From the IMG/VR virus record IMGVR_UViG_3300032296_004100: a stretch of 64,000 nt of DNA, one strand, 5' to 3'. Numbering within the stretch: the stretch's first letter is position 1; every line of letters begins with the position of its first letter. Shown here in pieces: positions 1-64,000 of the stretch. The translations under genes and the position numbers were made by a program. Source of the DNA: an uncultured virus (IMG/VR IMGVR_UViG_3300032296_004100) (Duplodnaviria; Heunggongvirae; Uroviricota; Caudoviricetes). The notes beneath the pieces were generated by a model that saw nothing but the letters and a program-made list of their open reading frames with translations, had not been told where the DNA came from and ran no database searches.

Positions 1-465
1 ACCACTTGTTCCTGAAGTTCCTGATTCACCACTAGTGCCTGATGTACCATCAACTCCACTAGTTCCTGAAGTACCAGATTCACCACTAGTACCTGAAGTT
101 CCTGACTCACCACTTGTTCCTGAAGTTCCTGACTCACCACTTGTTCCTGATGTACCTGATTCACCACTCGTCCCTGAGGTTCCATCCACACCACTAGTGC
201 CTGATGTACCATCTACACCACTAGTGCCTGATGTACCATCTATACCACTTGTGCCCGAAGTTCCTGAAATACCACTTGTACCTGAAGTTCCTGAAATACC
301 ACTTGTCCCTGATGTACCATCTGACCCGCTGGTACCAGATGTCCCATCAACTCCTGAGGTTCCTGAAGTTCCATCAATTCCTGATGTCCCTGAAGTTCCT
401 GATGAACCAACACCACTAGTACCCGAAGAACCACTTGTTCCGCTTGTACCTGAAGTACCAGTAAC
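1..465 (-). repeat. Tandem 9/27-nt repeats encoding (Gly-Thr-Ser)n collagen-like triplets
   Basis: Near-identical units such as accacttgttcctgaagttcctgactc on the + strand; Gly at nearly every third residue on the - strand. Confidence 0.9.
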
Positions 466-1386
466 ACCTGTCACAACAACAGATGTTCCATCACTATTAT
501 TTAGAGTTAAATTTCCAGTACCTGAATTATATGTACCGCCAGTCAATACGCCAGTAAATCCTGAAATCGAAACTGTACCTCCCGTTGAATTATACAACTC
601 TAAAGTTGTTGAAGCAGAAAAATAGGTACCACCCGTAACCGTTGTTCCGCCACCCGAGGTGGTGATTCCTGTAACGGTTACCGATGTACCATCGCTATTG
701 TTTAAAGTTAAGGCTGAAGTTCCTGAGTTGTAAGTACCACCGGTGACAGTTCCTGTAAATCCTGTGATGGTAATTGTACCACCCGTACTATTGACTAAAT
801 CTAATTCCGTTGTTGCAGAATAATATGTACCACCAGTTATCTGTATGTCTGAACCCCAAAAAATTCTCCAACGAGCGTTTTCTCTTGTAACACCACTTTG
901 ACCTTCAATGGTTGAACCTGTCCACGCATTAATAAAAGAACTACCCTGAGTAGTGTCTGAATATGCCACATATCCCGAGCCTAAGTCAATTATTGAATCT
1001 ACCGCCAGAGCTGCATTAAAAAGTGCGTCATAGTTTGGGATTGTGTATTGGTAAACAGTATCATTTTCTTGAACATGTACCTGCATACCAAGCCTTCTTC
1101 TACCTGAAGAAATTCCATCGTTATAGAGATTTAATTCATTGGGAATATCAAATGGAGCATTGTAAGTAAAACTGATTGGAGTAGTATTACCACTAAATAA
1201 AACGGGACCTCCCTCACTAAGAACTGAAGATGGTATTGTCCAATTTAAATCAGAAAGTGTGTAAACTTCTTGGTATCCACCAACAAGTTCAACAGAAAAT
1301 GTTGTTCCAAAATCTTGGGTTCTTAATACCGAAGTAGGTGCACCAACTTGTACTGCAGAGGTAGGGTTTTTATATTGAAAACTCAT
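1..1386 (-). CDS. Collagen-like (Gly-Thr-Ser repeat) putative tail fibre/virion protein, 3' end truncated by window edge
   Basis: Not in the ORF track because it runs off the edge. ATG at 1386 gives [27 protein letters not shown]...[18 protein letters not shown]..., then repeated TGGTY modules, then G-X-Y repeats ([12 protein letters not shown]...) open to position 1. A TATTTAT motif lies upstream. Confidence 0.8.
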
Positions 1387-1403
1387 CAGGTATTTTTTTA
1401 ATT

Positions 1404-1410
1404 ATAAATA
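1404..1410 (-). promoter_or_regulatory. TATTTAT putative phage late-promoter motif (representative copy)
   Basis: The same 7-mer occurs on the coding strand shortly upstream of at least 15 genes on both strands (see findings). Confidence 0.7.
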
Positions 1411-1416
1411 CCTGAA

Positions 1417-3375
1417 TTAAGTTAAATTCCCCCCCCTAAAATAATAATTGTTACCATTGTTTGTAATATTTGAGCCATTACCAGGTTTTGTGGTGTAAAC
1501 TCGGTATACACCCGCTGGAATGTTGGTACCTCCAGTGTAATTTATAATCAAATTACTAAAGACAGTATTCATAACAAAGGGGGTTAATACGTTTGGATTT
1601 GTACCAATTTCAATATCAGAGTAAATTTGATTGTTTGTGGCACCAGTGGGTACTATCCATGTGTACCAAGCAACTTCTGCACTCGACACCGTTGAGGAGA
1701 GAACTTGTTCTGTTTGGAATTTGTAGGCGACAATTGGATTTCCAAAACTGTCATTACCACCTGATACCGATGAAACGTCAGCAACTTGAATTGATGGTTC
1801 AGAAGGACCCCATCCTGAGTAAGCAATGTAAGAATTCATTTGGGTATTAAAGGTTGCCTGTACTGAAGACGGGTTGGTAATATTGAATCCTCGGAAAGAA
1901 CTACCTTGTGATTGCATGTAAGCATTCAACGCAGCACGAATTGTACTGTCGTTTCTATCGATGAATAAATAAGCTTGTAATCCACCTTGGGTTGGAGTTG
2001 GTGTTGGTGTGGTAGTAGTAGTTGGTGTTTGTGTCGGTTCTGGGGTACCTGAAGGGGTTGGGGTCGGTGTTTGGGTTTCAGTGTTGGTTGGAGTATTTGT
2101 TGGAGTCTCAGTATTTGTTGGGGTTGGTGTTGGAGTGTCAGTATTTGTTGGGGTATTTGTTGGTGTTTCTGAAGGTGTTGCAGTAAGGGTGGTGGTTGTG
2201 GTAGGTGTTGGAGTTTGAGTTGGCGTTTCAGTTGGTGTAGCCGTAGGTGTTGATGTTTCAGTATTAGTTGGAGTATTGGTTGGCGTACCTGTTGGAGTTT
2301 CAGTGTTTGTTGGAGTATTGGTTGGTGTACCAGTTGGAGTTGGAGTTGGGGTTGATGTTTCCGTATTAGTTGGCGTATTTGTCGGAGTTTCAGTTGGTGT
2401 TGGAGTAATAGACGCCGTCACCGAAGGTGTCGGTGTATTACTTGGAGTTGCCGTTGGTGTTAAACCAATAGTGGCGGTCGGAGTTGGAGTTTGAGTTGGA
2501 GTTCCTGTTGGAGTATTTGTTGGAGTTTCAGTTGGTGTTGTTGTTAAAGTGGTAGTTGTTGTTGGAGTTTGTGTATTTGTTTGTGTTGGTGTTGGTGTTG
2601 CCGTTTCAGGTGCAGTTACTGATGGTGTGGGGGAGTTACTTGGTGTTTGTGTAGGTGTTGGTGTTTGAGTTTCCGTAGCGGTTGGAGTCAATCCAATAGT
2701 CACCGAGGGTGTTGGTGTATTAGTTGGTGTGGGAGTAACGGTAGCCGATGATGTCGGAGTTGGGGTCGCAAATACCGCAGTTGGTTCGATTAGAATTGTG
2801 TCACCAGTAAAAGAAAAACTCGAATCCCTGTTGAGCGCATCGAAATTAGCACTAGCCAAAAACGCAGTGGTAGAACCTGTCAAATTACCAGCACTGATAC
2901 CAATTGCTGATAAAGCATTATAACTTCCACCACTTGTGATACCTAAAATTTGCTCGATTTGAATATCAATACCAAAATCTAAAGCACGGTTTAACGTAGC
3001 CTCATATTCAATATCAATAGAACCAGGATTTACAAATGAAATTAAATCAAGTACAGCAATTGTTGGGGTAGGTGTTGGAGTAGAAGTATTTGTTGGAGTG
3101 GGTCCCGGAGGGGTTGGCGTAGGTGTAGGTGTCGGAGTTGCCGTTGGAGTACCAAGACATAAAACAACACCATTAATTAATTCATTTCTCGTTACAGAAA
3201 CAAAATAAGGGGTCGCACCAGTAGAATTTATGTAAATATCAAAGGGACCAATCGCGTTAGATGTGTTTGGAAGTCTGATAATAAAACACTCCGAACCGGT
3301 AACATTTACCTGTTGTTCAACGGAGGTGTCACACCCATCCGCCCTATTGACACATATAATAGTTTCTAACGCCAT
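1417..3375 (-). CDS. Thr/Pro-rich (mucin-like) putative virion surface protein
   Basis: 652 aa; about 260-aa [11 protein letters not shown] tract separating globular N- and C-terminal domains; TATTTAT motif upstream. Confidence 0.75.
1990..2770 (-). repeat. Low-complexity Thr-Pro repeat tract
   Basis: gttggtgt/gttggagt-type repeats on the + strand encoding TPTPT/TPTNT on the - strand. Confidence 0.9.
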
Positions 3376-3439
3376 GATTTTCTATAATAAATACTAAAGA
3401 TTACCTCTTTTTAATTTTTATTAACACCTTTTTTCCATT

Positions 3440-3808
3440 TTATGAAACCAACTCCAATGTTGGTTCCGCCGCACAATTAGTTTCAATAACCGTTGTTTCA
3501 AATAAACAAGAAGATTCTGTTACCGTCATGGTTACCACACAACTTGCAGATTCAACTGAAATTATAAATCCACAGCCGAATGAACAATCTAAAATCACAA
3601 ATTTTTCACACCCATTATTATCAATAAGGGTGACCATAATCTGTGGAGCAGAATTAAATAAAGAAGGCGGATAAAAACGAGCCGCAGGAGGAATCACCCC
3701 TGTGTTTGTTATTGTACCAATTAAAGTTGAATTGTTTCCATAGATGTCGGAAACAAATACACTTATTGGAACACTACCAGAAACCGCTTCAATTCTTATC
3801 TGTGTCAT
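3440..3808 (-). CDS. Hypothetical small Cys-containing virion-associated protein
   Basis: ORF in the structural cluster; the MTQIRIE start (3808) overlaps the stop of the upstream gene, preferred over the track start at 3817. Confidence 0.6.
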   Translation of the reverse strand: MTQIRIEAVSGSVPISVFVSDIYGNNSTLIGTITNTGVIPPAARFYPPSLFNSAPQIMVTLIDNNGCEKFVILDCSFGCGFIISVESASCVVTMTVTESSCLFETTVIETNCAAEPTLELVS

Positions 3809-6800
3809 GTTAAGCAAATGATGTCATATACTATAATTAGTTTGACACTCAATTCTTGACCGATGATTGAACTATTTGGATTAGCGGAAATCGAAATTTG
3901 ATTTGTCAATGGGTCTATCGTGACTGATAATACTCCACTAACACCCTGAAGTAAGTTGGTGATTTCGGTAAACCAAGTGTTGTCACTTGGGACATCTACC
4001 AAAGTAGTTCCTGTGTAGAATGTGTTACTTATTACAGTGTTTTGAGGTTGAACTTCCACCTGTGCCGTAAACACCGCAGACAATAAAGTACAATTTGTAT
4101 TACCTGAGGTGAGGTCATTGAAACCTTCAACCAAAATTTGATTTATTCCGTGTTTGGTCGGAGAGAGAATATTGAATACCTCAGAACCCATAGTGTAGGT
4201 CTGATAAGTAACACACTTAGCATTACATTCAATACTTGTTTGTCTGGCAAGGGAACATCCATTAACATCTTGGACTATTAGGGTATAAGTCCCCCCCGTT
4301 AAACCCGTGACAGAAATGTTCTGTGGGTTACCTTGAATATTATTACTCCAAGTGAAGGTATATGGTGCAATTCCTTGGGTGATAAATGCCGTAAGGGTAC
4401 CTTCACTCCCTGAACCACAAGATGTGGAATAAAGTGAGAAGTCCACCGCAGGGGTGGATGTCATCGTAAATGGTGTTGAGAGGGTACATCCCGAAGCATC
4501 TGTAATACTCAAGAGGTGTTGACCCACTGTGACATTTGAGAAGGTTACAGTGGTTAAAAATGAACCAACAATATTGTTTGTTCCGTCAATAGAATAGGTG
4601 ACGGGTAAGGTTGCCCCTGATGAAATCGTAACATCTAAGATTCCTTGGGGGTTACCACAAGTTGAACCTGTTATGGAAAGGGATGTCGTGAATTTTTCCT
4701 CGGCAATTAGGGTAACTTCTGTTGAATATACACAACCTGTGGTGTCTTCAACAAAAATGGTATAAGTACCAGTTTCTAAATTGGGAAATACTTCGGTTGT
4801 TTGATTACTTGTTACAACATCGGTATTTGCGTTGGGGTCAATTATGGTATAGGTATATGGTGATACTCCTCCGATTACCTGAACAGTGATACTACCGTTT
4901 GTTGAGGAACATACGGAATTTGTTGTCGATACATTAACCGATGATATTCCACCAGGACTTGTTATAGATGTGGTAGCGTTAAAACTACAAAGTGCAGCAT
5001 CGGTTACTTGGAAAGAATAGTTCCCACTTGATAATCCTGATATGGAAAGACTTGTTGCATATGAAATTTCAACATATCCTGTACTTGCAGAATAGTAGTA
5101 CGGTGCCGTCCCCCCCGTTAAGGTAATGGTGACACTTCCGTTTGCTTCGAAACAAGTGGGAGGAACTGAGGTAAATGCCCCAAGACCAACTGGTTCAACT
5201 TCCGTCACAAGAGCATTTTGTGTTAACTGACATCCGTAAAAGTCGGTAACCTGAACCGAGTACACTCCAGGTGTCAACCCTGTAATGCTACTTGTTGTTT
5301 GTCCGTCATTCCACAAATAAGAGAACGGTGGTGTACCTGTTACTCCCGTTACAAATATTTTACCAATTGGAAAAGTGTTACACGAAGCATCAGGGACAAC
5401 ATATAACCCATAATTTAATGGTGAAGATTGTTGAACAATAAAGTTTTGGCTGTAACCTGTAGCACCCCCTAAATCAAATCCGTATAGGTAGTAAGTACCC
5501 GCAGATAAACTTGTAAATTCAACAGTACCCGTGTTTGTGACCGCTGAGGTGATATAGGTGTCATCCCCAGTGTATAGATAGTAGTTCGTTGTGGCAAAAA
5601 CCGATGAAGATGTCCCCGTTACCGAACCATTGTCCAAACCACAAGTGGTAGAGTTTACATTTAAAACCGAAACACATAAACAATCCGATACAATGATGTT
5701 AATAAAAAACTCACTGTTGACTGGAAGTTGTGAATCGTTGGCTCTAACAAAATAAGTTCCCGCTGGGAGATTGTCTTTAAATGGTCCAAGACCCAATTCA
5801 GGATTGTACCAATCAAAGGTATACGGGCCAACACCGCCCGAAGGTTCAATCAAAACCGCTCCAAATCCAGTTTGACAAGCACCCGTTACATTTAAGGTAT
5901 AATCAAACACCAACCCGTTACCAAATCCTGGCGAACTTGACGAAGGTGTTGGGGTTACAGGGATTAATGTTGTTGTTGGAGTAGGAGTGTTTGTAGGGGT
6001 TACAAGTACTGGTGTTGTTGTTGGTGTTTGAGTGTTTGTAGGGGTTACAAGGATTGGTGTTGAAGTGGGGGAAGGTGTGATTGTTGGTGTTGGAGTTACA
6101 GAAATTCCACAAGGGTCACTAAAACATGTTGAAATGAAGGTATCATTTACCTCTCCATTTGGTGGTCCAATAAATAATGGGTCAAATGGGTAAGTGTCTC
6201 CTGAGTATAAAGTAGATGAAAAAGTTAACGAGGTTGTTATGGATTGCCCCGACAAGGAACAAATGTTAAATACTAAGTTAGATGATGTTCCCACCACTTG
6301 TGTTGGCGTCCCATCACAAGCTGTGTAATTTACATAAACATTTCCATCGTCAGCTAAAGTTGGTAAAGAAGAACCAATTTCCATTTCGGTGCATTCACAA
6401 CATGGGAAATTCAATAAACACGGAGCACAGCCATCATATGTTATCAAAACTTGTGGACCACCTGAACCGCCCAATGAACTCACCGTATAACATGTGTCAT
6501 TATAAACCGTAACGGTGCCAATCGGAGGTCCCCCCGAGTTAATTATCTCAGCATCTAATGTATCGGTTGGGTCGCAGCAATTTACCAATATCACATTAGT
6601 GGAGGCAGAAAATGAAAGACAAGCCCCACCGTAGTCGAATTGACATTGGTCACAATCCGCAGTTCCATTTGTAATGGTACCAAAACCCGGTGGGGTGTAG
6701 TTAACTAACGAACCCTCTTGAGTGGTCGTAGCGGACCAACAAATATCACCATTAATTGTATCTCCTGTAGATACGTAAGTTAACCCGTCAACAAAAGAAC

Positions 6801-6894
6801 CTATCGAACCGTCAATTACAGGATTACAGGGGTTAATACTAAAACTACCATCACCGTTACAACAAGTTAAAAATATGTTATTAACACAAGACAT
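3805..6894 (-). CDS. SprB-repeat-containing putative adhesin/tail fibre protein
   Basis: Repeats of the type C..NGS(I/V)T....GG..PY.Y.W......L..G.Y...(V)TD..GC, typical of Bacteroidota SprB repeats; Cys-rich N-terminus and a TP linker. Confidence 0.75.
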   Translation of the reverse strand: MSCVNNIFLTCCNGDGSFSINPCNPVIDGSIGSFVDGLTYVSTGDTINGDICWSATTTQEGSLVNYTPPGFGTITNGTADCDQCQFDYGGACLSFSASTNVILVNCCDPTDTLDAEIINSGGPPIGTVTVYNDTCYTVSSLGGSGGPQVLITYDGCAPCLLNFPCCECTEMEIGSSLPTLADDGNVYVNYTACDGTPTQVVGTSSNLVFNICSLSGQSITTSLTFSSTLYSGDTYPFDPLFIGPPNGEVNDTFISTCFSDPCGISVTPTPTITPSPTSTPILVTPTNTQTPTTTPVLVTPTNTPTPTTTLIPVTPTPSSSSPGFGNGLVFDYTLNVTGACQTGFGAVLIEPSGGVGPYTFDWYNPELGLGPFKDNLPAGTYFVRANDSQLPVNSEFFINIIVSDCLCVSVLNVNSTTCGLDNGSVTGTSSSVFATTNYYLYTGDDTYITSAVTNTGTVEFTSLSAGTYYLYGFDLGGATGYSQNFIVQQSSPLNYGLYVVPDASCNTFPIGKIFVTGVTGTPPFSYLWNDGQTTSSITGLTPGVYSVQVTDFYGCQLTQNALVTEVEPVGLGAFTSVPPTCFEANGSVTITLTGGTAPYYYSASTGYVEISYATSLSISGLSSGNYSFQVTDAALCSFNATTSITSPGGISSVNVSTTNSVCSSTNGSITVQVIGGVSPYTYTIIDPNANTDVVTSNQTTEVFPNLETGTYTIFVEDTTGCVYSTEVTLIAEEKFTTSLSITGSTCGNPQGILDVTISSGATLPVTYSIDGTNNIVGSFLTTVTFSNVTVGQHLLSITDASGCTLSTPFTMTSTPAVDFSLYSTSCGSGSEGTLTAFITQGIAPYTFTWSNNIQGNPQNISVTGLTGGTYTLIVQDVNGCSLARQTSIECNAKCVTYQTYTMGSEVFNILSPTKHGINQILVEGFNDLTSGNTNCTLLSAVFTAQVEVQPQNTVISNTFYTGTTLVDVPSDNTWFTEITNLLQGVSGVLSVTIDPLTNQISISANPNSSIIGQELSVKLIIVYDIICLT

Positions 6895-6895
6895 T

Positions 6896-9800
6896 TTACG
6901 ACACGATTAGTTCTTCCTCTAATTGACTTTGAATTACCTCAGGACAATCAAGACTTATGTTTATTCCCACACTAAGGGATACCTCTTGTAAAGAATTCTC
7001 CAACACACAATTCAAATTGGTAATTGTAAGAAAGTTTCCATTTAAAGTATAAGTGTATCCGTACTGATATAAATTATTAAGATTATTAATTAGTGTTTGT
7101 CTCCAAAGTAATGCTGTTGGTACATCATTAATACCATAACCTTGATAGAGGGGAACACTTATAATAATTTGGTTTCCGATGGTTAAATTAAGTGACCATT
7201 CAGATGAAATTGAATTAGGATTGTATAACCCTTGGTTCGACCCTATCGAAATCAAATAGTTATTGACCCTGTTTGTTAAAATCGATTGGAAGTCTGAAAC
7301 CGTAACATCTCCATTTAACCAAGGAAAAATGAAGAAATCCACATATTCAGTATTACAATCGTAATCGAATATGTTTGAAATAATAAAACAAGGTTGTGAT
7401 TCAACAGGAATCAACTGACAACCCCTTTGTCTACGATAGACGAACTTCTGTTTGTGGAAAACAGAGTTTTCCAATCTTGTTCCCGCATTCCAAAGAGTAC
7501 TTGCGGCAATCATCTGTTCGATTAACTTTGGCCAAAATGGACCCATGGCATCAACATACTCAATTAACTTTTGATAGGTATATTTGTTGTTTGGTAGACC
7601 AACAGTCTGTTCAGATTGGATGTACTTCCAAAAGATAGATTGAAGTGTTGGATAACCCCCCGTTTTACCATCGGTGATATAAAGACGATTACGGGTGTTA
7701 ATCATATTTTGCCAAAATGTCTGATAAAACTCAAAGAATGTTTTCTTCTGTGGCTCAGGGTCAATAAAGGTATCATCGATTCCACTTGGTGAGGAGAAGT
7801 TACCAGTGAAACCTGACTCAGGAATTGGGTAGTTATACAACCTTGATTGATTCCAAACATCATACGCCAATCCCTGACCGACATTCATAAATAAATCTAT
7901 GTTCTTGACATTAAGAACAAGTTTTTCATCATCGGTAAAGTAATAAGCCTCGTAACCTGATTGAGTATCAACTCTTAGCCTGTTGTCAGTTTGTAGCCAA
8001 GATTTTTTGTTATCAGGAACTTTTCTCAGTTTGTAGGAATCCGTCATATACGGAAATTGTTCATACCTTTGAAGGTATATTCCCCCATATGTGAAAGGTT
8101 GAAGTTGAGTTTGAACATCCACATTTTGACCCGTAAAGACATCGCCTGTCACTGTGACTTGGTTAGGACTTCTGTGGTCGGGGGTTTGCTCATACCAACC
8201 AGCACCTTCCTGAAAGAACACACCGTTGGTTCCAGTTGGGTTAGGGGATTGAGGAAAACCAAGTTCATCGACAGGATAGTCGTTTCTTCGGATATTAACA
8301 GTTTGGAAAGTTGTAGATGTAGTGTAGGCAGTGAAGAGTTGACCTCTTATTGAGAATGTATTACCAGGTGATAGCGCTGGTTGTTCATTTATGAATGTTC
8401 CCCCCGATAACTGAGCAAACTGAGAGTTAAAGTTTTCCATATTAACTCTTTGGTCAGCCAAGTAGATGTACTCATTGAAATCTATAAGTGCTTCGGGAGC
8501 TCCGATTAAACGAAGTAAAAATTCAATTGACCTTCTTGTACCTTTTGATTTAAAAAGGTATGCCGAGTTTAATACTAAGTTTCTGTAGAATTGATAATTT
8601 AATTCAGTCGGAGTCTGAGCCCTTGAAAAACCAGGGTATTCAATTTGTGTGGTATTACCAAATACACTCGAAAGAAAATCTTCATTTGTAATTGGTGAGA
8701 AATTGTTACTCCACCCTAAAGTTTGAGATAAGTTAAATAACAATTGGGAGGGAATATCATTTTGTGGTACATAATGAACTGAGTTCATGTTTGCTAACGC
8801 ATCGATATATTGTTTGATTTGGTCAAAACTCCTACCGTAAATCTGAAGGATTTTTTCAACCTTTTGACCTAAGGTATCAAATTCTTTGATTGAATCTGTC
8901 ACCAAAAATCTTGAAATAAGGTTTGTCTTGTAGGTATCCAAATCTTCCGCAACATCGGCAAGGCTTGTAAGATAGTTGTCAAATCTAAATGAACTAATAT
9001 CTAAGTTATAGATACCATCTTTAGGGAAAGTCACTTGAACATAAGATGTGTAGAACTGACCCCCTTGGTTTTGTGCCGGTACTTGGAAATTGGCAGTGTA
9101 TTCAGGACGGATAAGACGGTTCATTAAGAACTGTTCAACCTCGTCATAGTTTTCTTGGAAGACTTTATCAACAATGTAATTGCTTGGTCTAATCAAAAAG
9201 TCCTCGTCAGTACTTGAAACACCCGAAGCAAATGCAGACCCCGAAACAACAAACTCCAAATTTCCTGAAATCTGTGTGGCAGGTGCAACATAATCTACAA
9301 CAGGATATGTCTGTCCTTGGTAATCTAAAACATAATTTAAAAAACCACGAGTTAGATTTCTGTATTGTGAGGTTTCAATCTCCCTCACCATCATGTTAGT
9401 TGTAGCACTCTGTGAGAACTCTATCTGAAATGGATTGTATACACTACCAACAGGAATTAGGAATGTTGTTTCATCTTCGATAGGGTCATAGGATATGTTT
9501 GTTGCAGTTTGACCTGTTGTAAAATCTGGCATCACCTTACGGATATCCAAAGCCGCAGGAAAGAAATTAATAATATGTGTAACCGAAACCTGTAATCTCT
9601 TGGCTAATGAACCATATAAAGAAAAGTTAAGAACTTGTGAAACATCATAATTTGGATAAACTCTAAATTGTGATTGAATGATTCTTCTACTTTCCTCCAT
9701 GGAGTTTATATCCAAATCCTCTAAAGAAATCGGATTGGAGAATGTACCAATAGAAAAAGTCCGATTAACCTTTTCAGTTACCGAGGTGGTAAAGTCAAAT

Positions 9801-9916
9801 ACCGACGAAGTAAGTCCTCCCCCTTCGACAAGTTGAAAACCAACTATGTCGTCAAACGCACCCGTACCGTTACCAGGTGCTGGAGGATAAAAAAACTTCG
9901 TCGTATTAACCGCCAT
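6896..9916 (-). CDS. Baseplate wedge / P2 gpI-like tail protein
   Basis: LLFNLSQTLGW...YLFKSKGTRRSIEFLLRLIG resembles the KGT motif of gpI/gp7-type wedge proteins; baseplate gene context. Confidence 0.6.
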   Translation of the reverse strand: MAVNTTKFFYPPAPGNGTGAFDDIVGFQLVEGGGLTSSVFDFTTSVTEKVNRTFSIGTFSNPISLEDLDINSMEESRRIIQSQFRVYPNYDVSQVLNFSLYGSLAKRLQVSVTHIINFFPAALDIRKVMPDFTTGQTATNISYDPIEDETTFLIPVGSVYNPFQIEFSQSATTNMMVREIETSQYRNLTRGFLNYVLDYQGQTYPVVDYVAPATQISGNLEFVVSGSAFASGVSSTDEDFLIRPSNYIVDKVFQENYDEVEQFLMNRLIRPEYTANFQVPAQNQGGQFYTSYVQVTFPKDGIYNLDISSFRFDNYLTSLADVAEDLDTYKTNLISRFLVTDSIKEFDTLGQKVEKILQIYGRSFDQIKQYIDALANMNSVHYVPQNDIPSQLLFNLSQTLGWSNNFSPITNEDFLSSVFGNTTQIEYPGFSRAQTPTELNYQFYRNLVLNSAYLFKSKGTRRSIEFLLRLIGAPEALIDFNEYIYLADQRVNMENFNSQFAQLSGGTFINEQPALSPGNTFSIRGQLFTAYTTSTTFQTVNIRRNDYPVDELGFPQSPNPTGTNGVFFQEGAGWYEQTPDHRSPNQVTVTGDVFTGQNVDVQTQLQPFTYGGIYLQRYEQFPYMTDSYKLRKVPDNKKSWLQTDNRLRVDTQSGYEAYYFTDDEKLVLNVKNIDLFMNVGQGLAYDVWNQSRLYNYPIPESGFTGNFSSPSGIDDTFIDPEPQKKTFFEFYQTFWQNMINTRNRLYITDGKTGGYPTLQSIFWKYIQSEQTVGLPNNKYTYQKLIEYVDAMGPFWPKLIEQMIAASTLWNAGTRLENSVFHKQKFVYRRQRGCQLIPVESQPCFIISNIFDYDCNTEYVDFFIFPWLNGDVTVSDFQSILTNRVNNYLISIGSNQGLYNPNSISSEWSLNLTIGNQIIISVPLYQGYGINDVPTALLWRQTLINNLNNLYQYGYTYTLNGNFLTITNLNCVLENSLQEVSLSVGINISLDCPEVIQSQLEEELIVS

Positions 9917-10824
9917 TACCCGACTATTGTTGTGAAGTTTTTAGTAAAATCAATGTTAGCTCCCCTATCTTGACGAACCTCATATAGAAGTGCGTTAAAC
10001 TGGTCACGAATCTCAAATAAGTTGTATTGTTTGTAGATATTGTTATCACTGTCGTAGATAGTGTAAACTCCATCTTCAATACTCTTGGTTTGATTTCCAT
10101 AAAGGGCAATTGCCAGAGATGAAATATCGTACTCAACCATGTCAACCTCAATGGTTACAGGGTTAAAGAAAGTATTTGAAATAATAATGTTTTGAGCAGG
10201 TTGACCGATAAATGGTGTTGCGTTCGGTTTATTGGTCGGTGATGACGATGGTGAAACCGTACAGAACATAAGGTTAGTAACCCCGTCAACATAGCGATAA
10301 CGAATTGCTTTCTGTGTTGTATTAACCTGATTAACAACTACCGGCTCACAAAAGAAATTTGAAGTTATAATTCTAAAAAAGTTTGGAATTTTAGACCCGT
10401 CAGAGTTTAAGTATTCCACTCTAAAACCAATCAATCCTTGTGGTGTAAACTTATTCCTAAATTGGCTTGGCACATTAGTAAGGTCAATAATAATACCTTT
10501 AACATTGGGAAGGGCCGACAACACACCACAATCTGTAATTGATGTTCTGATTTGTGCGGGTCTTAACATCATAGTGTATATCCCCACCTGATTAAAGACA
10601 TCAGCTGGTAGGGTAAGGTTGTATAACCCACCCAAAACTTCCACATTAGCATTACCGCCAGTGGTTGCGTTATTAAAGTAAGGTCTGAGAACCGATGGTG
10701 CGTCCAATGATGTTAACACAAAATCAGCTGTTTCATCCCTTGAGGGTGTATAATTCAAGATGATTTCTACATCTTCAGGAGATACATCCGCCGTTCTTAG
10801 TGTGCCATAGGTTCCGATTGCCAT
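9916..10824 (-). CDS. Hypothetical phage structural protein
   Basis: 302-aa beta-rich ORF whose stop overlaps the start of the downstream gene; TATTTAT motif upstream. Confidence 0.6.
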   Translation of the reverse strand: MAIGTYGTLRTADVSPEDVEIILNYTPSRDETADFVLTSLDAPSVLRPYFNNATTGGNANVEVLGGLYNLTLPADVFNQVGIYTMMLRPAQIRTSITDCGVLSALPNVKGIIIDLTNVPSQFRNKFTPQGLIGFRVEYLNSDGSKIPNFFRIITSNFFCEPVVVNQVNTTQKAIRYRYVDGVTNLMFCTVSPSSSPTNKPNATPFIGQPAQNIIISNTFFNPVTIEVDMVEYDISSLAIALYGNQTKSIEDGVYTIYDSDNNIYKQYNLFEIRDQFNALLYEVRQDRGANIDFTKNFTTIVG

Positions 10825-10853
10825 TTGAAAAGTTTCTTATTTTTATAAATAGT

Positions 10854-11924
10854 TTATCCCTTATTTTCTATGGTGTAATATCCATAACCATAGTTTATTA
10901 ACCCTGAAAGGGTAGATACCTCACCCAATCTTTGAATTTGTTGGTAAACAGTGTTTTTACCCCTTTCAACAAATACAGTGGTAATAATCTGTGGTTGGTC
11001 CTGAATTTTAATTAACAACTCGTCCTTTGTTATCGGCACGGCAGTTAACATATCACTTGTAAACCCACTACTATTTTGGAAGTAGATACTCGACCCATCC
11101 GAATAGTCATAGTAATTTGTATCTTGAATGGTATATGCAGTAAACACCGAATTCATATCGGTAATCACCCCATAAGGTTGAGCGTTTTGGAAAACAGGAA
11201 CACCAACTTGGTATTCAACAGGTCCATACAATGCAAGTTCCGTTACCCTTGATGATGTTAATCCCGAAACAACAAAAGGGACTTGAGTATATCCTGAAGA
11301 AATTTCACTCTCCACAGTGTTAACCGCATCTCCTGAGAAAATGTAATCGTAACTCACAGGTGTGTTAGCCCAACTTCCCCCCAAAGGAGTAAAGAACGCC
11401 CTACCTAACGGGTTATAAATAACCGCATTGGTAAATGGTACTTGGATAACCTTTGAAACAGTGTTAACCCCAAACGGAGTGGTCTGTTTCATAGTAATTG
11501 TATACCCCGAAGTTGTATTAGGATAAACATGGGATAAAGTATCACCAGTGAAAATCTCGTCGGGGGTATTATCCCCCCAGTTTATCGTATAGGCAGCAAG
11601 TCCCAAGTAAGTGGCCGCCCTATCGGAAGAATTGTAAACGGTATAGACATACGGAGAGGTTGTAGCTGCCGTGAAAATAAAATTCGTCACCACATCTTTC
11701 TGCTCTGCAGCTCCATCAAACGGAGAGTAGTATCCCAAATCAATGGTGGTCTCGGTGAGCATAATACACAAACTAAGTCCCGTCATAATGGAACTACCGT
11801 TTGTACCCCCACTTAAAATCTGAGACATTCCTGAGTAAACCCCAACGGTCTCACCACTTATATCAACAAAAGATAAATCTGATGTGATATTCGCTGGTCC
11901 AACAACAAAACGATAATCAGCCAT
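10854..11924 (-). CDS. Putative virion protein with PKD-like domain
   Basis: YTINWGDNTP...LSHVYP...YTIT matches the PKD WGD pattern. Confidence 0.6.
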   Translation of the reverse strand: MADYRFVVGPANITSDLSFVDISGETVGVYSGMSQILSGGTNGSSIMTGLSLCIMLTETTIDLGYYSPFDGAAEQKDVVTNFIFTAATTSPYVYTVYNSSDRAATYLGLAAYTINWGDNTPDEIFTGDTLSHVYPNTTSGYTITMKQTTPFGVNTVSKVIQVPFTNAVIYNPLGRAFFTPLGGSWANTPVSYDYIFSGDAVNTVESEISSGYTQVPFVVSGLTSSRVTELALYGPVEYQVGVPVFQNAQPYGVITDMNSVFTAYTIQDTNYYDYSDGSSIYFQNSSGFTSDMLTAVPITKDELLIKIQDQPQIITTVFVERGKNTVYQQIQRLGEVSTLSGLINYGYGYYTIENKG

Positions 11925-57786: not shown

Positions 57787-57793
57787 ATAAGTT

Positions 57794-61182: not shown

Positions 61183-61198
61183 ATTTTCAATTTTTACC

Positions 61199-61243
61199 GA
61201 GTGACACATTATCTTCCACAACTAAGTGGAGTTTGTCTTACTC
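61199..61243 (-). promoter_or_regulatory. Structured 5' leader of the DNA polymerase mRNA
   Basis: GAGT-AA-GACA...TGTC-ACTC outer stem enclosing a TCCAC-TTAGTT-GTGGA hairpin. Confidence 0.5.
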
Positions 61244-61259
61244 ATTCATCGATAAATAT

Positions 61260-61278
61260 AAAAAACCCGAATTGGGTT
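61260..61278 (-). terminator. Probable terminator after the BppU-like gene
   Basis: Minus strand AACCC-AATTC-GGGTTTTTT. Confidence 0.55.
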
Positions 61279-61284
61279 GTCAAA

Positions 61285-61683
61285 CTAACAACAAGATTGT
61301 TCCGAAATAAAACTATCTTCGATATTGATATAAAGTTCCTCACGGATGGGGACAATCAAATTTCCTTGTTGAGTACCGAGTAATCCACTGTTCTTAATTA
61401 AGAATTGTCCTTGATATCTCCCAGGGGTATCGGTTTGTCTTGAGGTAAACTGATAATAGATATAGTATTCTGTTGGTGCACCTGGTTCACTTGGTATTAA
61501 ACTCACAATAGAACATGGTGCTCCCACAATTTTAGGAATTCCTGTTTTTACATCAACCATTGAAAAGAATATGGTGGCGAGTTCTAATAACTCCATAGTA
61601 TCACCATAGGTACTTCTACCGTCTTGAACAACTTGCATTTTTAAAACTGGCAAAGTTGCATTTTTCCTAATAAAGAATTCCAT
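61285..61683 (-). CDS. BppU N-terminal-like virion protein
   Basis: FFIRKNATLPVLKM...YYQFTSRQTDTPGRYQGQF pattern; TATTTAT motif upstream. Confidence 0.55.
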   Translation of the reverse strand: MEFFIRKNATLPVLKMQVVQDGRSTYGDTMELLELATIFFSMVDVKTGIPKIVGAPCSIVSLIPSEPGAPTEYYIYYQFTSRQTDTPGRYQGQFLIKNSGLLGTQQGNLIVPIREELYINIEDSFISEQSCC

Positions 61684-61701
61684 ACAAAGATAAATACTTT
61701 G

Positions 61702-63372
61702 TTAGGACTCTTTTCTTAACTTTCCATCGTAGAATTCGAATCTATCGTGTTCGGTAGGTGTTGCAAATAACAGTGAGGGTTTGATGTTCCCTTTTTTTGT
61801 TTCTTGATAAATGTAACTCATCCAAGTTTGTTCAAAGGGTCTATCCCACTTTGTGGTGAGGAACATTTTTTCGTTTCCGTATCTTGAAACCACTTGTGGC
61901 CAATTGCAATAATACACCTCACCTATACCATAAGCTAATCCTTTGAAAGAACGGACTTCATTAAACTTAGTTCTTGGAGCATTGGGGTCTAATCCTTGTA
62001 CTGGAAGAGTAGATTTTTCGGGCCAATACTCCTCTCTAATATGCTGAGGTACATTATACCAAGACCATTGAGTACCATTGTCACCATAAAATTCGGTAAA
62101 ATTGAGTTTTATAAAATCCAAGGATTCTTTTTTGGCAATTTGAATTGATTTGTTGTAGAGGTCAGGAATTTTTCTTACAAAACCATTTTTACAAGTTTCA
62201 TTAGCACCACCATAAAAAAACATATCATCTTCAAAGAACCAATAGAAATCAAATTTGTTCTCCTGAGAGTGCTCGGCAATCCATTGTCTTCCGCCACAAA
62301 TTCCTAAGTTATCCTTTTTGATATGTTCGAAACCAAATTCATCACACAACTCTTTATATCTTTCAGTAGTAGTTAAATCTGATGAATTATCTAACAAGAA
62401 CTTTTTTGGTTTATCTAAAAAGTTTCTATCATACATTTCCATTGATTTAATTAAAGTCTCAAACTGATTAGGACTATTAAATGTAATTACATACAGTGCT
62501 GAGTTATCAATATTCAAATCAGAATATGCGACTTTGCCCTGAGTATTTTTAACTTTATGGGTGTCGTTTTTGACATCTTCACAAAATTTACCGATAAGTC
62601 CGTTTGACTCAATTTCATAGTAGTCAAAAATATCGGGGTGCCGATAAAGAAGAATACTGAATAAAGATTCTTCTGTACCCATAAGACCATCCGATAGAGT
62701 TTGATTCATCAGATTGTAATAAAGTCCATTGACATCAGAAATACTATCTTTACTACCACCGAAGATTCCACCACGACAAACAAGTTTTACATGGTTTCCT
62801 GCGTAGTTGTTGATTTTAGGATAAGTAAAACCATGAATTTCTTTTTCAGCGGCATAAGGAAAGGCAACAAACCCAAACTTACTGAAGAGATTATGAAACT
62901 TATGGTGAATTTTATCATGAGTAAAATATCCAGGATGAACCGTATTTGTTATACCTGCATCAATCCAAAACATATGGGTCGAATCAAAAGAGTCAAAAAT
63001 CCTCGCATCGTTAAGTAAAAACATTTTAGACATAACCAAAGGGTTATACATATCCAAACGAGACTGAGTTGATTCGGGTAACCAACCTGATTGATTAAAC
63101 CATTCAGGATTGGTTCTAATTTTTTGAATTTTGTCGTAAAAATCATTTTTAAACCAAGATTGGTCCCTAACGATAAACTGAGTGTTTTCACGACCCCTTC
63201 TTTCCCAAACAAACCCTTCAAGTTCTTTTTCCCCAAAAATAATTAGGTTGGCGTCGATTTGAAGTAGTTGTTCAAATTTATCTAAATAGTGCTGAAATGA
63301 ACGAGACCAACCCTCTTGGAGTTCATCCCTTTTTATATTCCAAAGGCCCGTAACGAAAGTAACTTTATTCAT
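61702..63372 (-). CDS. Two-domain glycosyltransferase-like protein (HtrL/YibB-like plus GT-A-like)
   Basis: N-domain VTFVTGLWNI, MSKMFLL, FWIDAG, GGIFGG, GTEES; C-domain LYVITFN, LLDNS, NLGICGGRQ, FFEDDM (DxD-like). Confidence 0.7.
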   Translation of the reverse strand: MNKVTFVTGLWNIKRDELQEGWSRSFQHYLDKFEQLLQIDANLIIFGEKELEGFVWERRGRENTQFIVRDQSWFKNDFYDKIQKIRTNPEWFNQSGWLPESTQSRLDMYNPLVMSKMFLLNDARIFDSFDSTHMFWIDAGITNTVHPGYFTHDKIHHKFHNLFSKFGFVAFPYAAEKEIHGFTYPKINNYAGNHVKLVCRGGIFGGSKDSISDVNGLYYNLMNQTLSDGLMGTEESLFSILLYRHPDIFDYYEIESNGLIGKFCEDVKNDTHKVKNTQGKVAYSDLNIDNSALYVITFNSPNQFETLIKSMEMYDRNFLDKPKKFLLDNSSDLTTTERYKELCDEFGFEHIKKDNLGICGGRQWIAEHSQENKFDFYWFFEDDMFFYGGANETCKNGFVRKIPDLYNKSIQIAKKESLDFIKLNFTEFYGDNGTQWSWYNVPQHIREEYWPEKSTLPVQGLDPNAPRTKFNEVRSFKGLAYGIGEVYYCNWPQVVSRYGNEKMFLTTKWDRPFEQTWMSYIYQETKKGNIKPSLLFATPTEHDRFEFYDGKLRKES

Positions 63373-64000
63373 AAATTCTATTAAATTCTTCTAATATTCT
63401 ATAAAAACTTTTTTTATCTTCATAATATGAAACGTTTAAATCCCTCGGACCAGAGTCAGGACACCACCAAATATCGAACTGTTTTATTTCAAATAACTCA
63501 GGATGATTAACACGCATCAATGACATAATATTTTCCTCGTGTGGAAGTGTTTTATCTGTTGAAATAATTTTTTGTAAATAATCTTCAAAAATATTAACAA
63601 TGTCATCCCATTTTGATTTATGACCGCCAAACATTCCACCAATAACATGAAGAGAAGGGTCATATAAATTTGTATACCAATTTCTGTTTACTGTGCCCGA
63701 CCAATAATAATTTACATTTTCTTTAGCTAACATAAGGAATTTATCTCCAGTGTCTTGTATTACATTTCTTAAAAAATCATTGTTGAAAAGTGTCGATTCA
63801 TAATACCTGCGCTCTGGGTGTGTTCCAACCAAATATTTGTTTGGAATTAATCCTGTATGGGAAAGGCCCGCATCAATCCAGTAATAGTAATCATAACTTT
63901 TATCCTCATTCCACCACCAGTGGAACTTGGAATATTGTATCTCCATACATCGGTCACCCCTTCTTACACCTTCGACATCTTTAAATTCATTTATTAAATT
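63365..64000 (-). CDS. HtrL/YibB-like glycosyltransferase, 5' end beyond the window
   Basis: Frame is open to 64000 (NLINEFKDVEGVRRGDRCMEIQYSKFHW...); YWIDAGLSH, GGMFGG and HEENIMS parallel the neighbouring gene. Confidence 0.7.
   Translation of the reverse strand, partial: NLINEFKDVEGVRRGDRCMEIQYSKFHWWWNEDKSYDYYYWIDAGLSHTGLIPNKYLVGTHPERRYYESTLFNNDFLRNVIQDTGDKFLMLAKENVNYYWSGTVNRNWYTNLYDPSLHVIGGMFGGHKSKWDDIVNIFEDYLQKIISTDKTLPHEENIMSLMRVNHPELFEIKQFDIWWCPDSGPRDLNVSYYEDKKSFYRILEEFNRIYE

What the first reader, a model, noticed from the sequence alone, without database searches (positions are those of the whole stretch)
1..64000. Virion proteins carry a dense [ST]-[GA]-x-T motif: candidate sequon for a phage-encoded virion glycosylation system
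Seen: the tetrapeptide [ST][GA]xT recurs in unrelated structural proteins. The 356-aa protein (10854-11924) has 9 copies (SGET, SGGT, TAAT, TGDT, SGYT x2, SGLT, TAYT, SGFT), where a rough composition estimate gives only 1-2. There are about 15 each in 1-1386 and 3805-6894, at least 6 in the sheath (TGNT, SANT, SGST, TGLT, SGVT, SGAT), and more in 6896-9916, 11917-14443 and the hub. By eye I find none in the DNA polymerase, NrdA, DnaB or SNF2 proteins, and only the Walker A TGKT in RecA. The window also encodes tandem HtrL/YibB-like and GT-A-like glycosyltransferases (61702-64000) plus mucin-like Thr/Pro and (Gly-Thr-Ser)n tracts. Known: some phages glycosylate their virions, and the Bacteroidota host O-glycosylation sequon is D-[ST]-[AILVMT], which is different. 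Inference: the phage may have its own sequon-directed modification system decorating the tail and baseplate.
Basis: partly seen in the sequence, partly recalled or inferred. Interest (0 to 1): 0.85.

Follow-up and report, generated by a model that had tools for sequence, protein, structure and literature searches.

The report
Sequon-like motif on phage tail proteins
The outer tail proteins of this uncultured giant water phage and its many relatives carry the four-residue word Ser/Thr-Gly/Ala-x-Thr far more often than chance, and it evolves like a tag read by some other factor, perhaps a sugar-adding enzyme, though probably not the ones encoded in this window.

Summary
The counts are right and the enrichment is real. 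Five adjacent distal-tail proteins (6896-19670) hold 30 [ST][GA]xT against 6.05 expected. Shifted, reversed and Ser-ended variants are not enriched, and an unbiased word scan finds the motif on its own. T4, XacN1, a Flavobacterium phage and Mel-JY01 lack it.

Hundreds of relatives keep it. At single sites S/T and G/A swap, x varies and Thr stays. Three lineages lost it. In the one with readable neighbours (L245), near-invariant sites in three proteins are gone while other conserved Ser/Thr/Gly/Ala columns remain (5 of 24 against 191 of 258 kept, p=4e-7). So the fold does not need the motif; something seems to read it in trans.

A glycosylation sequon is the leading reading but is unproven, and the window's transferases are a poor match. 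XacN1 has their homologues without the motif. Record G003 has the motif without them. They more likely serve the Thr/Pro mucin-like tracts. Better candidates are transferases shared by the three fullest clade records, outside the window.

The scan noted this word before on other phage DNA (e1-6033620, e1-5709981).

The parts
6896..9916 (-). 1006-aa distal-tail protein with no family hit. It has 5 motif copies. Four of them (TGQT 134, SGGT 504, TAYT 529, SGFT 701) are kept in 94-95 of 96 distinct orthologues.
10854..11924 (-). 356-aa protein with PKD/FN3-like domains. It has 9 motif copies against 1.3 expected and is the family used for most comparisons.
11917..12756 (-). 279-aa distal-tail protein with 3 copies against 0.27 expected.
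12749..14443 (-). 564-aa distal-tail protein with 5 copies against 0.56 expected. Three sites are kept in 84-106 of 115 orthologues.
14436..19670 (-). 1744-aa distal-tail protein with 8 copies against 2.8 expected.
3805..6894 (-). 1029-aa fibre-like protein with SprB repeats and a Thr/Pro linker (residues ~264-318). It has 17 copies against 5.8 expected; part of the count comes from the repeat consensus.
1..1386 (-). Collagen-like (Gly-Thr-Ser)n tail-fibre protein, cut by the window edge. It has 16 copies against 7.2 expected, 14 of them in residues 184-306, which hold an internal tandem duplication.
47432..50635 (-). Tail sheath. All 7 copies lie in the non-core N-terminal 771 residues (7 v 2.5); the conserved C-terminal sheath core has none (0 v 0.46).
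1417..3375 (-). 652-aa protein with a ~260-residue mucin-like Thr/Pro tract. The motif is not enriched (5 v 7.1). It is a likely acceptor for a mucin-type transferase.
9916..10824 (-). 302-aa protein inside the motif-rich block with 0 copies. It is the best conserved gene of the block (65% identical even in the motif-free lineage L245).
61702..63372 (-). 556-aa two-domain transferase: an N-terminal HtrL_YibB domain (PF09612, E 1e-15) and a GT2-like C-terminal half (language-model lead only). Full-length homologues (40-41% identity) occur in the jumbo phages XacN1, Xoo-sp13, CM1 and RAS14.
63365..64000 (-). Partial gene, 293 aa in the near-identical relative. It is HtrL/WlaTC-like by language-model features only and has no Pfam hit.

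Best explanation
[ST]-[GA]-x-T, usually preceded by a hydrophobic or Ser/Thr residue, is a genuine, selected short linear motif. It sits on the outward parts of the tail of a large clade of uncultured aquatic T4-like jumbo phages: the proteins next to the baseplate genes, the fibres and the outer sheath domains. SprB repeats and a PorP/SprF gene in a relative suggest Flavobacteriia-type hosts.

Shown: the motif is kept as a class. At a given site Ser and Thr swap, Gly and Ala swap, the third residue drifts and the last Thr is almost fixed. The fold does not need it, because one lineage keeps the same proteins yet has lost the conserved copies in three of them.

Inferred: the motif is read in trans. 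The most likely reader is a phage-encoded soluble protein O-glycosyltransferase that acts in the cytoplasm on folded or folding virion proteins, with the invariant Thr (or the first Ser/Thr) as acceptor.

Inferred: the writer is not the HtrL-type pair in the window. The best candidates lie outside it and are shared by the three fullest records of the clade examined. They are a 268-aa GT2 with a GT-B-like neighbour, and a PF13712 enzyme. The window's cluster, which continues just beyond the window with GT25- and GT60-like genes, more likely decorates the Thr/Pro mucin-like tracts.
For: Specificity:
- 30 v 6.05 in five non-repetitive proteins.
- Variants are flat: [ST][GA].S 5 v 5.6, the reversed word 6 v 6.1, shifted forms 0.7-1.5x, [^ST][GA].T 1.18x.
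- SA.T, TG.T and SG.T rank 2nd-4th of all tri-residue words seen at least 5 times in nine virion proteins.
- Codons at the motif are mixed, and BLAST finds no paralogy among the proteins.

Controls without the motif:
- T4 tail proteins 19 v 16.8.
- XacN1, 197 ORFs, 82 v 100.3.
- Flavobacterium phage immuto 34 v 22.2 and Microcystis phage Mel-JY01 9 v 7.3.

Clade-wide:
- 38 homologues of the 356-aa protein at 26-65% identity hold 254 v 28.7.
- In the complete 310-kb genome G007, 8 of 442 ORFs hold 82 v 10.9 and the other 434 hold 69 v 52.7.

Class-level conservation: over 17 conserved sites, P1 is S 827/T 615, P2 is G 986/A 400, P3 is varied and P4 is T 1310/S 68.

Loss:
- 4 of 35 family members have 0-1 copies, and well-supported branches force three separate changes.
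- In L245 the 7 ORFs hold 2 v 1.8. Sites kept in 94-95 of 96 orthologues are destroyed (TGQT to EDNT, SGGT to SEGK, TAYT to PSYD, SGFT to DVLN).
- Conserved S/T and G/A columns are kept in 5 of 24 motif columns against 191 of 258 outside it (p=3.6e-7).
- Low GC is not the cause: loci at 27-31% GC are 6-7x enriched.
- The replacements are mostly charged or polar, which suggests exposed sites (inference).

Glycosylation capacity:
- The ~97% relative G002 has seven Pfam-supported transferase genes plus sugar-nucleotide enzymes at 83-99 kb.
- The 268-aa GT2 is found in 6 of 9 clade records, including all five that are at least 65% complete.
- It and the PF13712 enzyme have no match among 50,697 GenBank phage records, the four motif-free controls included.

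Precedent: SgtA adds O-GlcNAc to Thr of Gly-Pro-Thr triplets (PMC7157674, abstract and section 3.2).
Against: - No chemistry exists, and no cultured member of the clade was found in the GenBank phage searches.
- No motif-free genome was long enough to ask which enzyme it lacks, so co-occurrence with any writer is untested. The clade-specific transferases are confounded with phylogeny.
- Concerted loss across several proteins is shown for one lineage only (L245). For the other two losses only the 356-aa protein is known.
- Several sites are about 99% conserved over 40-60% sequence identity. That fits fixed structural or contact sites better than a drifting glycan shield.
- The conserved 268-aa GT2 sits beside head genes, whereas in G007 the head proteins are not clearly enriched.
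- Part of the count comes from known PKD/SprB domain signatures.
- The AF2 model is only moderate (pLDDT 70.4, pTM 0.36) and gave no coordinates, so exposure was not measured.
Confidence: 0.4

Rival explanations
1. The motif is a contact or assembly motif. Its copies are docking points for a clade-specific partner, such as a cementing or fibre protein, an assembly chaperone or a bound ligand, or a local beta-structure idiom of this clade's Ig/PKD-like domains. No covalent modification is involved. Lineages that lost the partner lost the motif.
For: - Several sites are kept in 94-95 of 96 orthologues at 40-60% overall identity, and again in homologues at 26-35% identity.
- A hydrophobic residue often precedes the motif: 19 v 2.1 in the five window proteins, and 55% v 35% at 64 sites.
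- The 356-aa protein contains PKD/FN3-like domains, and one site overlaps the PKD signature.
- The motif is concentrated in the distal tail module rather than over the whole virion surface.
Against: - The nine sites of the 356-aa protein lie in mixed DSSP states (hairpin loop, coil, strand start, mid-strand, strand end), so no single local structure fits.
- The same degenerate word recurs in at least 8 proteins with no detectable paralogy.
- L245 keeps the proteins at 31-42% identity and similar length without the motif.
- Four other myoviruses with Ig-like tail proteins lack it.
- No candidate partner was identified.
Confidence: 0.3
2. The motif is the target of another modification or of a host enzyme, for example Ser/Thr phosphorylation, or O-glycosylation by a cytoplasmic host transferase. 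Lineages that moved to hosts without that enzyme lost the motif.
For: - The loss pattern (concerted in L245) and the class-level conservation fit any trans-acting reader.
- No phage transferase could be tied to the motif.
- L245 differs strongly in base composition (26% GC), which suggests another host.
Against: - No protein kinase hit appeared in the Pfam scans. These covered 40 window proteins, 77 proteins of G002 and 142 of G003.
- The phages invest heavily in their own transferases and sugar-nucleotide enzymes.
- The host general sequon is not enriched (18 v 21), and that system is periplasmic (recalled).
Confidence: 0.12
3. This is the first reader's specific proposal: the tandem HtrL/YibB-like and GT-A-like transferases at 61702-64000 are the writers that read [ST][GA]xT.
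For: - They are transferase-like (PF09612, E 1e-15; language-model leads).
- They are conserved in close relatives: 79 loci found, 56 distinct full-length orthologues.
- XacN1, which has a homologue, is reported to have at least two virion glycoproteins (PMC5852040, passages).
Against: - G003 (88% complete) has the motif at full strength but no HtrL-556, GT25 or GT60-like gene.
- The complete genome G007 lacks HtrL-556, the 293-aa gene and GT25, yet 8 of its ORFs hold 82 v 10.9.
- XacN1 has HtrL-556 and GT60-like homologues but no enrichment.
Confidence: 0.05
4. The motif is a chance or compositional artefact: a word picked by eye in Ser/Thr/Gly-rich proteins.
For: - The word was chosen after looking at the data.
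- Much of the raw contrast between structural and enzymatic proteins comes from composition.
- Internal repeats inflate two of the counts.
Against: - z=10.6 in non-repetitive proteins, with flat control variants.
- The unbiased scan recovers the word.
- It is replicated in proteins outside the window and in distant homologues.
- It is absent from four control phages.
Confidence: 0.02

Closest known systems
Virion O-glycosylation of mycobacteriophages by phage-encoded glycosyltransferases (Freeman et al. 2023). The paper is not held; I know it only through citing passages in PMC12619734.
   Same: The phage encodes its own soluble transferases, and virion proteins are the proposed acceptors.
   Different: According to the citing passage, the glycans there sit at the C-termini of the capsid and tail-tube subunits. 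Here the motif is internal, scattered, and lies in distal-tail and fibre proteins; the tail tube has none. No defined four-residue sequon appears in that citing passage, and I have not seen the original paper.
Xanthomonas jumbo phage XacN1: at least two virion glycoproteins detected, attributed to its own transferases ORF328 and ORF334 (PMC5852040, passages; its Supplementary Fig. S4 was not seen).
   Same: It has full-length homologues of the window's 556-aa HtrL-type enzyme (41% identity, ORF330) and of the GT60-like enzyme just beyond the window (47.5%, ORF334). A carbamoyltransferase sits in its cluster beside the baseplate genes. 14 of its proteins have long Thr/Pro tracts.
   Different: It has no [ST][GA]xT enrichment (82 v 100.3 in 197 ORFs). 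It lacks the clade-specific 268-aa GT2 and the PF13712 enzyme.
SgtA with BclA3 of Clostridioides difficile: O-GlcNAc on Thr of Gly-Pro-Thr collagen-like triplets (PMC7157674, abstract and section 3.2).
   Same: A soluble bacterial-type transferase acts on Thr two residues after Gly. The motif here contains [GA]-x-T with an almost invariant Thr.
   Different: Here Ser/Thr is also required three residues before the Thr ([^ST][GA].T is only 1.18x). The context is Ig/PKD-like domains, not a triple helix. The window's own collagen-like repeat is Gly-Thr-Ser. Homology of any phage enzyme to SgtA was not tested.
CAZy GT60 polypeptide alpha-GlcNAc transferases, for example T. cruzi OGNT acting on Thr of mucin-like proteins (PMC9472816, passages), and Pfam PF11397 (Skp1 hydroxyproline GlcNAc transferase family).
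   Same: The gene three genes beyond the window end in the ~97% relative matches PF11397 at E 4e-68. The phage has long Thr/Pro tracts. The relative encodes two 2OG-Fe(II) oxygenases of the prolyl-hydroxylase type.
   Different: That gene lies outside the window, and its acceptor is more plausibly the mucin-like tracts than [ST][GA]xT. G003 has such tracts but no detected PF11397 gene.
General O-glycosylation of Bacteroidota, sequon D-[ST]-[AILVMT]
   Same: A short degenerate sequon marks surface proteins in the probable host phylum.
   Different: That word is not enriched here (18 v 21.0). The host system works outside the cytoplasm (recalled), whereas phage virions assemble inside it.
Autotransporter heptosyltransferases (TibC/Aah) acting on AIDA-I and TibA.
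   Same: A cytoplasmic O-glycosyltransferase modifies many Ser/Thr on a beta-rich surface protein, recognising a short strand-loop-strand context (recalled).
   Different: No homologue was sought or found here. The acceptor there is a repeat unit of one protein, not a word shared by at least 8 unrelated proteins.

Membership tests
Sequon-directed protein glycosylation (generic definition) | A short degenerate motif far above chance in the acceptor proteins and absent from non-acceptors. | tested here: met
   30 v 6.05 in five proteins, enzymes 1 v 2.95, other large virion proteins 18 v 17.7. The unbiased scan ranks the word 2nd-4th.
Sequon-directed protein glycosylation (generic definition) | Conservation at the level of the motif class rather than of particular residues. 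| tested here: met
   Over 17 conserved sites: P1 S 827/T 615, P2 G 986/A 400, P3 free, P4 T 1310/S 68.
Sequon-directed protein glycosylation (generic definition) | The motif co-occurs with, and depends on, a specific transferase. | tested here: inconclusive
   The window's transferases are decoupled from the motif in both directions. The 268-aa GT2 and the PF13712 enzyme are shared by the three fullest clade records and absent from GenBank phages, but this is confounded with phylogeny. No genome of a motif-free lineage was available.
Sequon-directed protein glycosylation (generic definition) | A glycan is shown on the motif residue. | not testable with these tools
   This needs virion or recombinant glycoproteomics.
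Mycobacteriophage-type virion glycosylation | Acceptor sites at the C-termini of the capsid and tail-tube subunits (as quoted in PMC12619734). | tested here: not met
   The tail tube 45961-46449 has 0 copies. The sites are internal and lie in distal-tail proteins.
HtrL/YibB family (PF09612; NCBIfam TIGR02192) | The domain matches above the curated cut-off. | tested here: met
   Pfam: 58.6 bits against a cut-off of 24.1, E 9.8e-16, residues 3-251 of 61702-63372. The NCBIfam equivalog cut-off is not reached (66.6 v 264.9 bits). It is therefore a family member, not a YibB equivalog.
GT60 / PF11397 polypeptide GlcNAc transferase | The PF11397 domain is present in the window. | tested here: not met
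   No window protein matches PF11397. The match (230.8 bits, E 4e-68) is in the ~97% relative, three genes beyond the window end.
GT60 / PF11397 polypeptide GlcNAc transferase | Thr/Pro-rich mucin-like acceptor tracts are present. | tested here: met
   Tracts occur in 1417-3375 and 3805-6894. Proteins with tracts: 8 in G002, 14 in XacN1, 1 in G007, 0 in T4, and 0 in the immuto, Mel-JY01 and L245 loci. G003 is an exception: 9 tracts but no PF11397 gene found.
SgtA/BclA-type Gly-x-Thr O-glycosylation | The acceptor Thr lies in collagen-like Gly-x-Thr triplets. | tested here: not met
   The motif-rich proteins are not collagen-like. The window's collagen-like repeat is Gly-Thr-Ser. Only the [GA]-x-T core is shared.
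Bacteroidota general O-glycosylation | Enrichment of D-[ST]-[AILVMT] in the acceptor proteins. | tested here: not met
   18 v 21.0 (sd 4.4) in nine virion proteins.
Ordinary beta-turn or fold-intrinsic structural motif | One recurrent local structure that the fold requires. | tested here: not met
   The nine sites of the 356-aa model lie in mixed DSSP states (moderate model). L245 keeps the homologous proteins without the motif. Four control phages lack the enrichment.

The most novel reading that the evidence does not exclude
This clade of aquatic jumbo phages runs a sequon-directed, phage-encoded cytoplasmic O-glycosylation system. It would be the first defined sequon for phage virion glycosylation: hydrophobic-[ST]-[GA]-x-T. 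It would be written by the conserved GT2 and GT-B-like pair or the PF13712 enzyme onto the host-facing tail apparatus, and discarded wholesale at least three times. A second, separate system (GT60-like enzyme, prolyl-hydroxylase-like oxygenases, fucosyltransferases) would decorate the Thr/Pro mucin-like linkers, much as eukaryotes glycosylate mucins or hydroxyproline-rich proteins.
Probability: 0.3. Interest if true: 0.85.

Novelty: new variant of a known kind. Interest (0 to 1): 0.68.

Why it matters
Phage virion glycosylation is known from very few cases, and three full-text searches found no paper describing a sequon for it. A defined four-residue tag on the host-recognition apparatus of a widespread clade of uncultured phages would make the question directly testable. 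This clade has 1464 detected homologues of one of these proteins. One could express a 356-aa protein with two or three candidate enzymes and look for a mass shift.

The result would also help explain why large aquatic phages carry so many transferase and sugar-nucleotide genes. It would bear on receptor recognition, on protection from proteases or grazers, and on reading tail-fibre evolution.

Even if the tag proves to be a contact motif, a degenerate word shared by at least eight unrelated proteins, and lost in concert in one lineage, points to an unrecognised shared partner in tail assembly.

Tried and rejected
- The window's own genome is not held. I used IMG/VR record G002 instead (~97% protein identity, 171 kb, 57% complete).
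- Generic fibre-protein idiom: rejected by T4, XacN1, immuto and Mel-JY01.
- DNA-level word: rejected because codons at the motif are mixed. A mild excess of TCG at the first position was not pursued.
- Paralogous domains: BLAST among 15 virion proteins found only the internal repeat of 1-1386.
- Low GC as the cause of the loss in L245: rejected, since loci at 27-31% GC are 6-7x enriched.
- Long contigs of motif-free lineages: five IMG/VR scans gave only motif-bearing relatives or nothing. L378, which looked close to P0249, is motif-rich (15 v 1.9 in its neighbour). The single metagenome scan gave only the 9.3-kb L245. So co-occurrence with a writer could not be tested.
- PDB sequence searches with the GT60-like and HtrL-556 proteins found no match.
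- The AF2 model gave secondary structure only, no coordinates, so solvent exposure was not computed. Foldseek gave only PKD/FN3-type domain matches.
- The 239-aa GT2 as a conserved writer: rejected, as it is found only in G002 and G003.
- The paper Freeman et al. 2023 is not held.
- Not used: the second structure job, complex prediction, sequencing-run tools and RNA tools.

Full report
WHAT THE WINDOW IS. The window is part of an uncultured T4-like jumbo myovirus. PHROGs and Pfam identify a tail sheath, tube, baseplate hub, gp25-like and J-like wedge proteins, and a collagen-like fibre. They also identify ribonucleotide reductase, DnaB, a RecA/UvsX-like protein, gp32, family-B polymerase and an SNF2 helicase. 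SprB repeats, and a PorP/SprF gene in a relative, point to Flavobacteriia-type hosts. The gene content of relatives (DnaJ, ClpB-like, glutamine synthetase) resembles the 'moraphages' of PMC12619734 (abstract and passages seen). I did not test membership. The window's own genome is not held. IMG/VR record G002 is ~97% identical at protein level, 171 kb, and rated 57% complete. The genome is therefore about 300 kb.

THE OBSERVATION. With 2000 shuffles per protein, seven proteins between 1 and 19670 are enriched at p<=0.0055, and the sheath at p=0.02.
- Two of the largest counts are not independent. In 1-1386, 14 of 16 copies lie in residues 184-306, which hold an internal tandem duplication. In 3805-6894 part of the count comes from the SprB/PKD-like repeat consensus.
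- The clean evidence is the five non-repetitive proteins at 6896-19670: 30 copies against 6.05 (z=10.6), and 19 against 2.1 with a hydrophobic residue in front.
- The word is sharply defined. [ST][GA].S (5 v 5.6), the reversed word (6 v 6.1), one-residue shifts (0.7-1.5x), [ST][SN].T (0.9x) and [^ST][GA].T (1.18x) are all flat.
- Seven other virion or virion-region proteins pooled (18 v 17.7) and ten enzymes pooled (1 v 2.95) are not enriched.
- In an unbiased scan of all tri-residue words seen at least 5 times in nine virion proteins of G002, SA.T, TG.T and SG.T rank 2nd to 4th. The host sequon D[ST][AILVMT] (18 v 21) and N-x-S/T (83 v 84) are flat.
- Codons at the motif are mixed, and BLAST finds no paralogy among the proteins.

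IS IT GENERIC? No.
- T4 baseplate and fibre proteins gp5-gp12 and gp34-gp37 hold 19 against 16.8 (37 T4 proteins examined).
- XacN1 holds 82 against 100.3 in 197 ORFs over 66-264 kb.
- The baseplate and fibre module of the host-phylum-matched Flavobacterium phage immuto holds 34 against 22.2 in 13 genes.
- The nearest cultured relative, Microcystis phage Mel-JY01, holds 9 against 7.3 in 11 genes.

HOW WIDE IS IT? The 356-aa protein has 1464 detected homologues.
- In 57 distinct orthologues at 54-97% identity the motif count is 357 against 52. The 1006-aa and 564-aa families give 335 v 64 and 245 v 42. Polymerase orthologues give 6 v 19.5. These are related sequences, so the sums are not independent.
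- 38 cluster representatives at 26-65% identity give 254 against 28.7.
- Loci of a second, distant subfamily are 2-7x enriched over all their ORFs, mostly 3-7x, including loci at 27-31% GC.
- Genome-wide, the complete 310-kb genome G007 (direct terminal repeats, 442 ORFs) concentrates 82 copies against 10.9 expected in 8 ORFs. These are the distal tail module and fibre-like genes. The other 434 ORFs hold 69 against 52.7.
- G002 also shows enrichment in proteins next to the head genes and in the major capsid protein (5 v 0.99). G007's head proteins are not clearly enriched.
- In the window's sheath all 7 copies lie outside the conserved C-terminal core.

HOW IT EVOLVES. At 17 conserved sites in four protein families, the first position swaps between Ser (827) and Thr (615). 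The second swaps between Gly (986) and Ala (400). The third is free. The fourth is Thr in 1310 cells against 68 Ser. Selection therefore acts on the class [ST][GA]xT.

Four of 35 members of the 356-aa family have 0-1 copies. On a maximum-likelihood tree they need three separate changes, forced by well-supported branches.

For one such lineage a 9.3-kb contig (L245) was recovered.
- Its seven ORFs, syntenic orthologues of 14436-19670 through 6896-9916, hold 2 copies against 1.8 expected.
- Sites kept in 94-95 of 96 orthologues are destroyed: TGQT to EDNT, SGGT to SEGK, TAYT to PSYD, SGFT to DVLN. The flanks are retained.
- Conserved Ser/Thr and Gly/Ala columns outside the motif are kept in 191 of 258 cases. 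Those inside it are kept in 5 of 24 (Fisher p=3.6e-7).
- The fold therefore does not need the motif, and the constraint on many sites in several proteins was lifted together. I read this as dependence on a trans-acting factor.
- The concerted, multi-protein loss is documented for this single lineage only. The replacements are mostly charged or polar, which suggests exposed positions (inference).

STRUCTURE. An AF2 model of the 356-aa protein is moderate (53-sequence alignment, pLDDT 70.4, pTM 0.36). The nine sites sit in different DSSP states. Foldseek finds PKD/FN3-like domains. One site overlaps the PKD signature. No coordinates were available, so exposure was not measured.

THE TRANSFERASES.
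- In the window, 61702-63372 has an HtrL_YibB domain (E 1e-15) and a C-terminal half that looks GT2-like by language-model features only.
- The partial gene 63365-64000 looks HtrL/WlaTC-like by the same kind of lead.
- In G002 the cluster continues beyond the window with a GT25-like gene and a PF11397 (GT60-type) gene (E 4e-68).
- G002 also has a second cluster at 83-99 kb. It holds a PF13712+GT4 enzyme, three GT2 genes, GT10- and GT11-like genes, two DegT aminotransferases, GDP-mannose dehydratase, an epimerase, a sugar O-methyltransferase and a nucleotidyltransferase. Elsewhere in G002 there are two carbamoyltransferases and two prolyl-hydroxylase-type oxygenases.

LINK BETWEEN MOTIF AND WINDOW TRANSFERASES. 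It fails in both directions.
- G003 (270 kb, 88% complete) is as motif-rich (for example 15 v 1.04, 11 v 1.66, 7 v 0.66). It has no HtrL-556, GT25 or PF11397 gene.
- G007 lacks HtrL-556, the 293-aa gene and GT25.
- XacN1 carries full-length homologues of HtrL-556 (41%) and the GT60-like enzyme (47.5%) without the motif.
- What XacN1 does share with this phage is many long Thr/Pro tracts. Proteins with such tracts number 14 in XacN1, 8 in G002, 9 in G003, 1 in G007 and 0 in T4. There are none in the immuto, Mel-JY01 and L245 loci.
- GT60 enzymes glycosylate Thr of mucin-like proteins (PMC9472816, passages), and XacN1 virions contain glycoproteins (PMC5852040, passages). I therefore assign the window's cluster to the mucin-like tracts (inference). 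G003 is an unexplained exception.

CANDIDATE WRITERS FOR THE MOTIF. The transferases shared by G002, G003 and G007 are these:
- a 268-aa GT2 with a conserved 351-aa neighbour that has a sub-threshold GT-B match (23.9 v 26.4 bits);
- a PF13712 enzyme.

The GT2 is found in 6 of 9 clade records, including all five that are at least 65% complete. Neither enzyme has a match among 50,697 GenBank phage records. This is compatible with a writer role but is confounded with phylogeny.

VERDICT. The motif is real, specific, clade-wide, class-conserved and dispensable for the fold. A glycosylation sequon is the leading explanation (about 0.4), ahead of a contact or assembly motif (about 0.3). The specific claim that the window's transferases read it is not supported.

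Three full-text searches found no paper describing such a sequon in phages. Earlier notes of this scan reported the same word on other phage DNA. They are not independent evidence. One of them gave the SgtA/BclA3 lead, which I read.

Noticed in passing
window 54745-56271 (+): A 508-aa protein has a complete Fe/Mn superoxide dismutase (residues 36-224; Pfam E 7e-41 and 4e-20) followed by ~280 residues with no family hit. It is conserved in relatives (519 aa in G003).
   Followed up: partly
window 52555-52950 (+): A 131-aa SET-domain protein (PF00856, E 3e-17), a lysine-methyltransferase fold, is encoded between the tail genes and the SNF2 helicase.
   Followed up: no
window 31280-37852 and 38165-43216 (-): Two giant ORFs (2190 and 1683 aa) in the tail region have no Pfam or PHROG hit and no motif enrichment (3 v 3.6 and 3 v 2.4).
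   Followed up: no
window 9916-10824 (-): This 302-aa protein inside the motif-rich block has no motif copy and no family hit. It is far better conserved than its neighbours: 65% identical in L245, where the neighbours are 31-42%.
   Followed up: partly
window 6896-19670; also G002 virion proteins: The word D-C-x-T occurs 5 times against 0.27 expected in nine virion proteins (top of the unbiased scan). The window has copies in 6896-9916, 12749-14443 and 14436-19670 (two).
   Followed up: partly
L268-L273 (G002, beyond the window): The ~97% relative encodes two prolyl-hydroxylase-type 2OG-Fe(II) oxygenases, a PF11397 (Skp1 hydroxyproline GlcNAc-transferase family) enzyme, GT2 genes and fucosyltransferase-like genes. 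This set recalls the eukaryotic Skp1 hydroxyproline glycosylation pathway (recalled) and could act on the Thr/Pro tracts.
   Followed up: partly
L276-L279 (XacN1, 66-264 kb): 14 XacN1 proteins carry long Thr/Pro mucin-like tracts (up to ~540 residues). Its homologues of the window's transferase cluster sit beside the baseplate genes and a 3313-aa ORF.
   Followed up: partly
L258, L261, L262 (G003): A relative encodes a PorP/SprF type IX secretion membrane protein (E 4e-45), a fasciclin-domain protein, PEP carboxykinase, a glutamine synthetase-like protein, DnaJ and a ClpB-like ATPase.
   Followed up: no
window 6896-19670 (motif first position): Ser at the first motif position uses TCG in 6 of 16 cases, against 41 of 315 Ser codons overall in the same proteins.
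   Followed up: no
window 23902-25182 (-): The ribonucleotide reductase small subunit carries an N-terminal ATP-cone domain (E 3e-22), which I recall is usually found on the large subunit.
   Followed up: no
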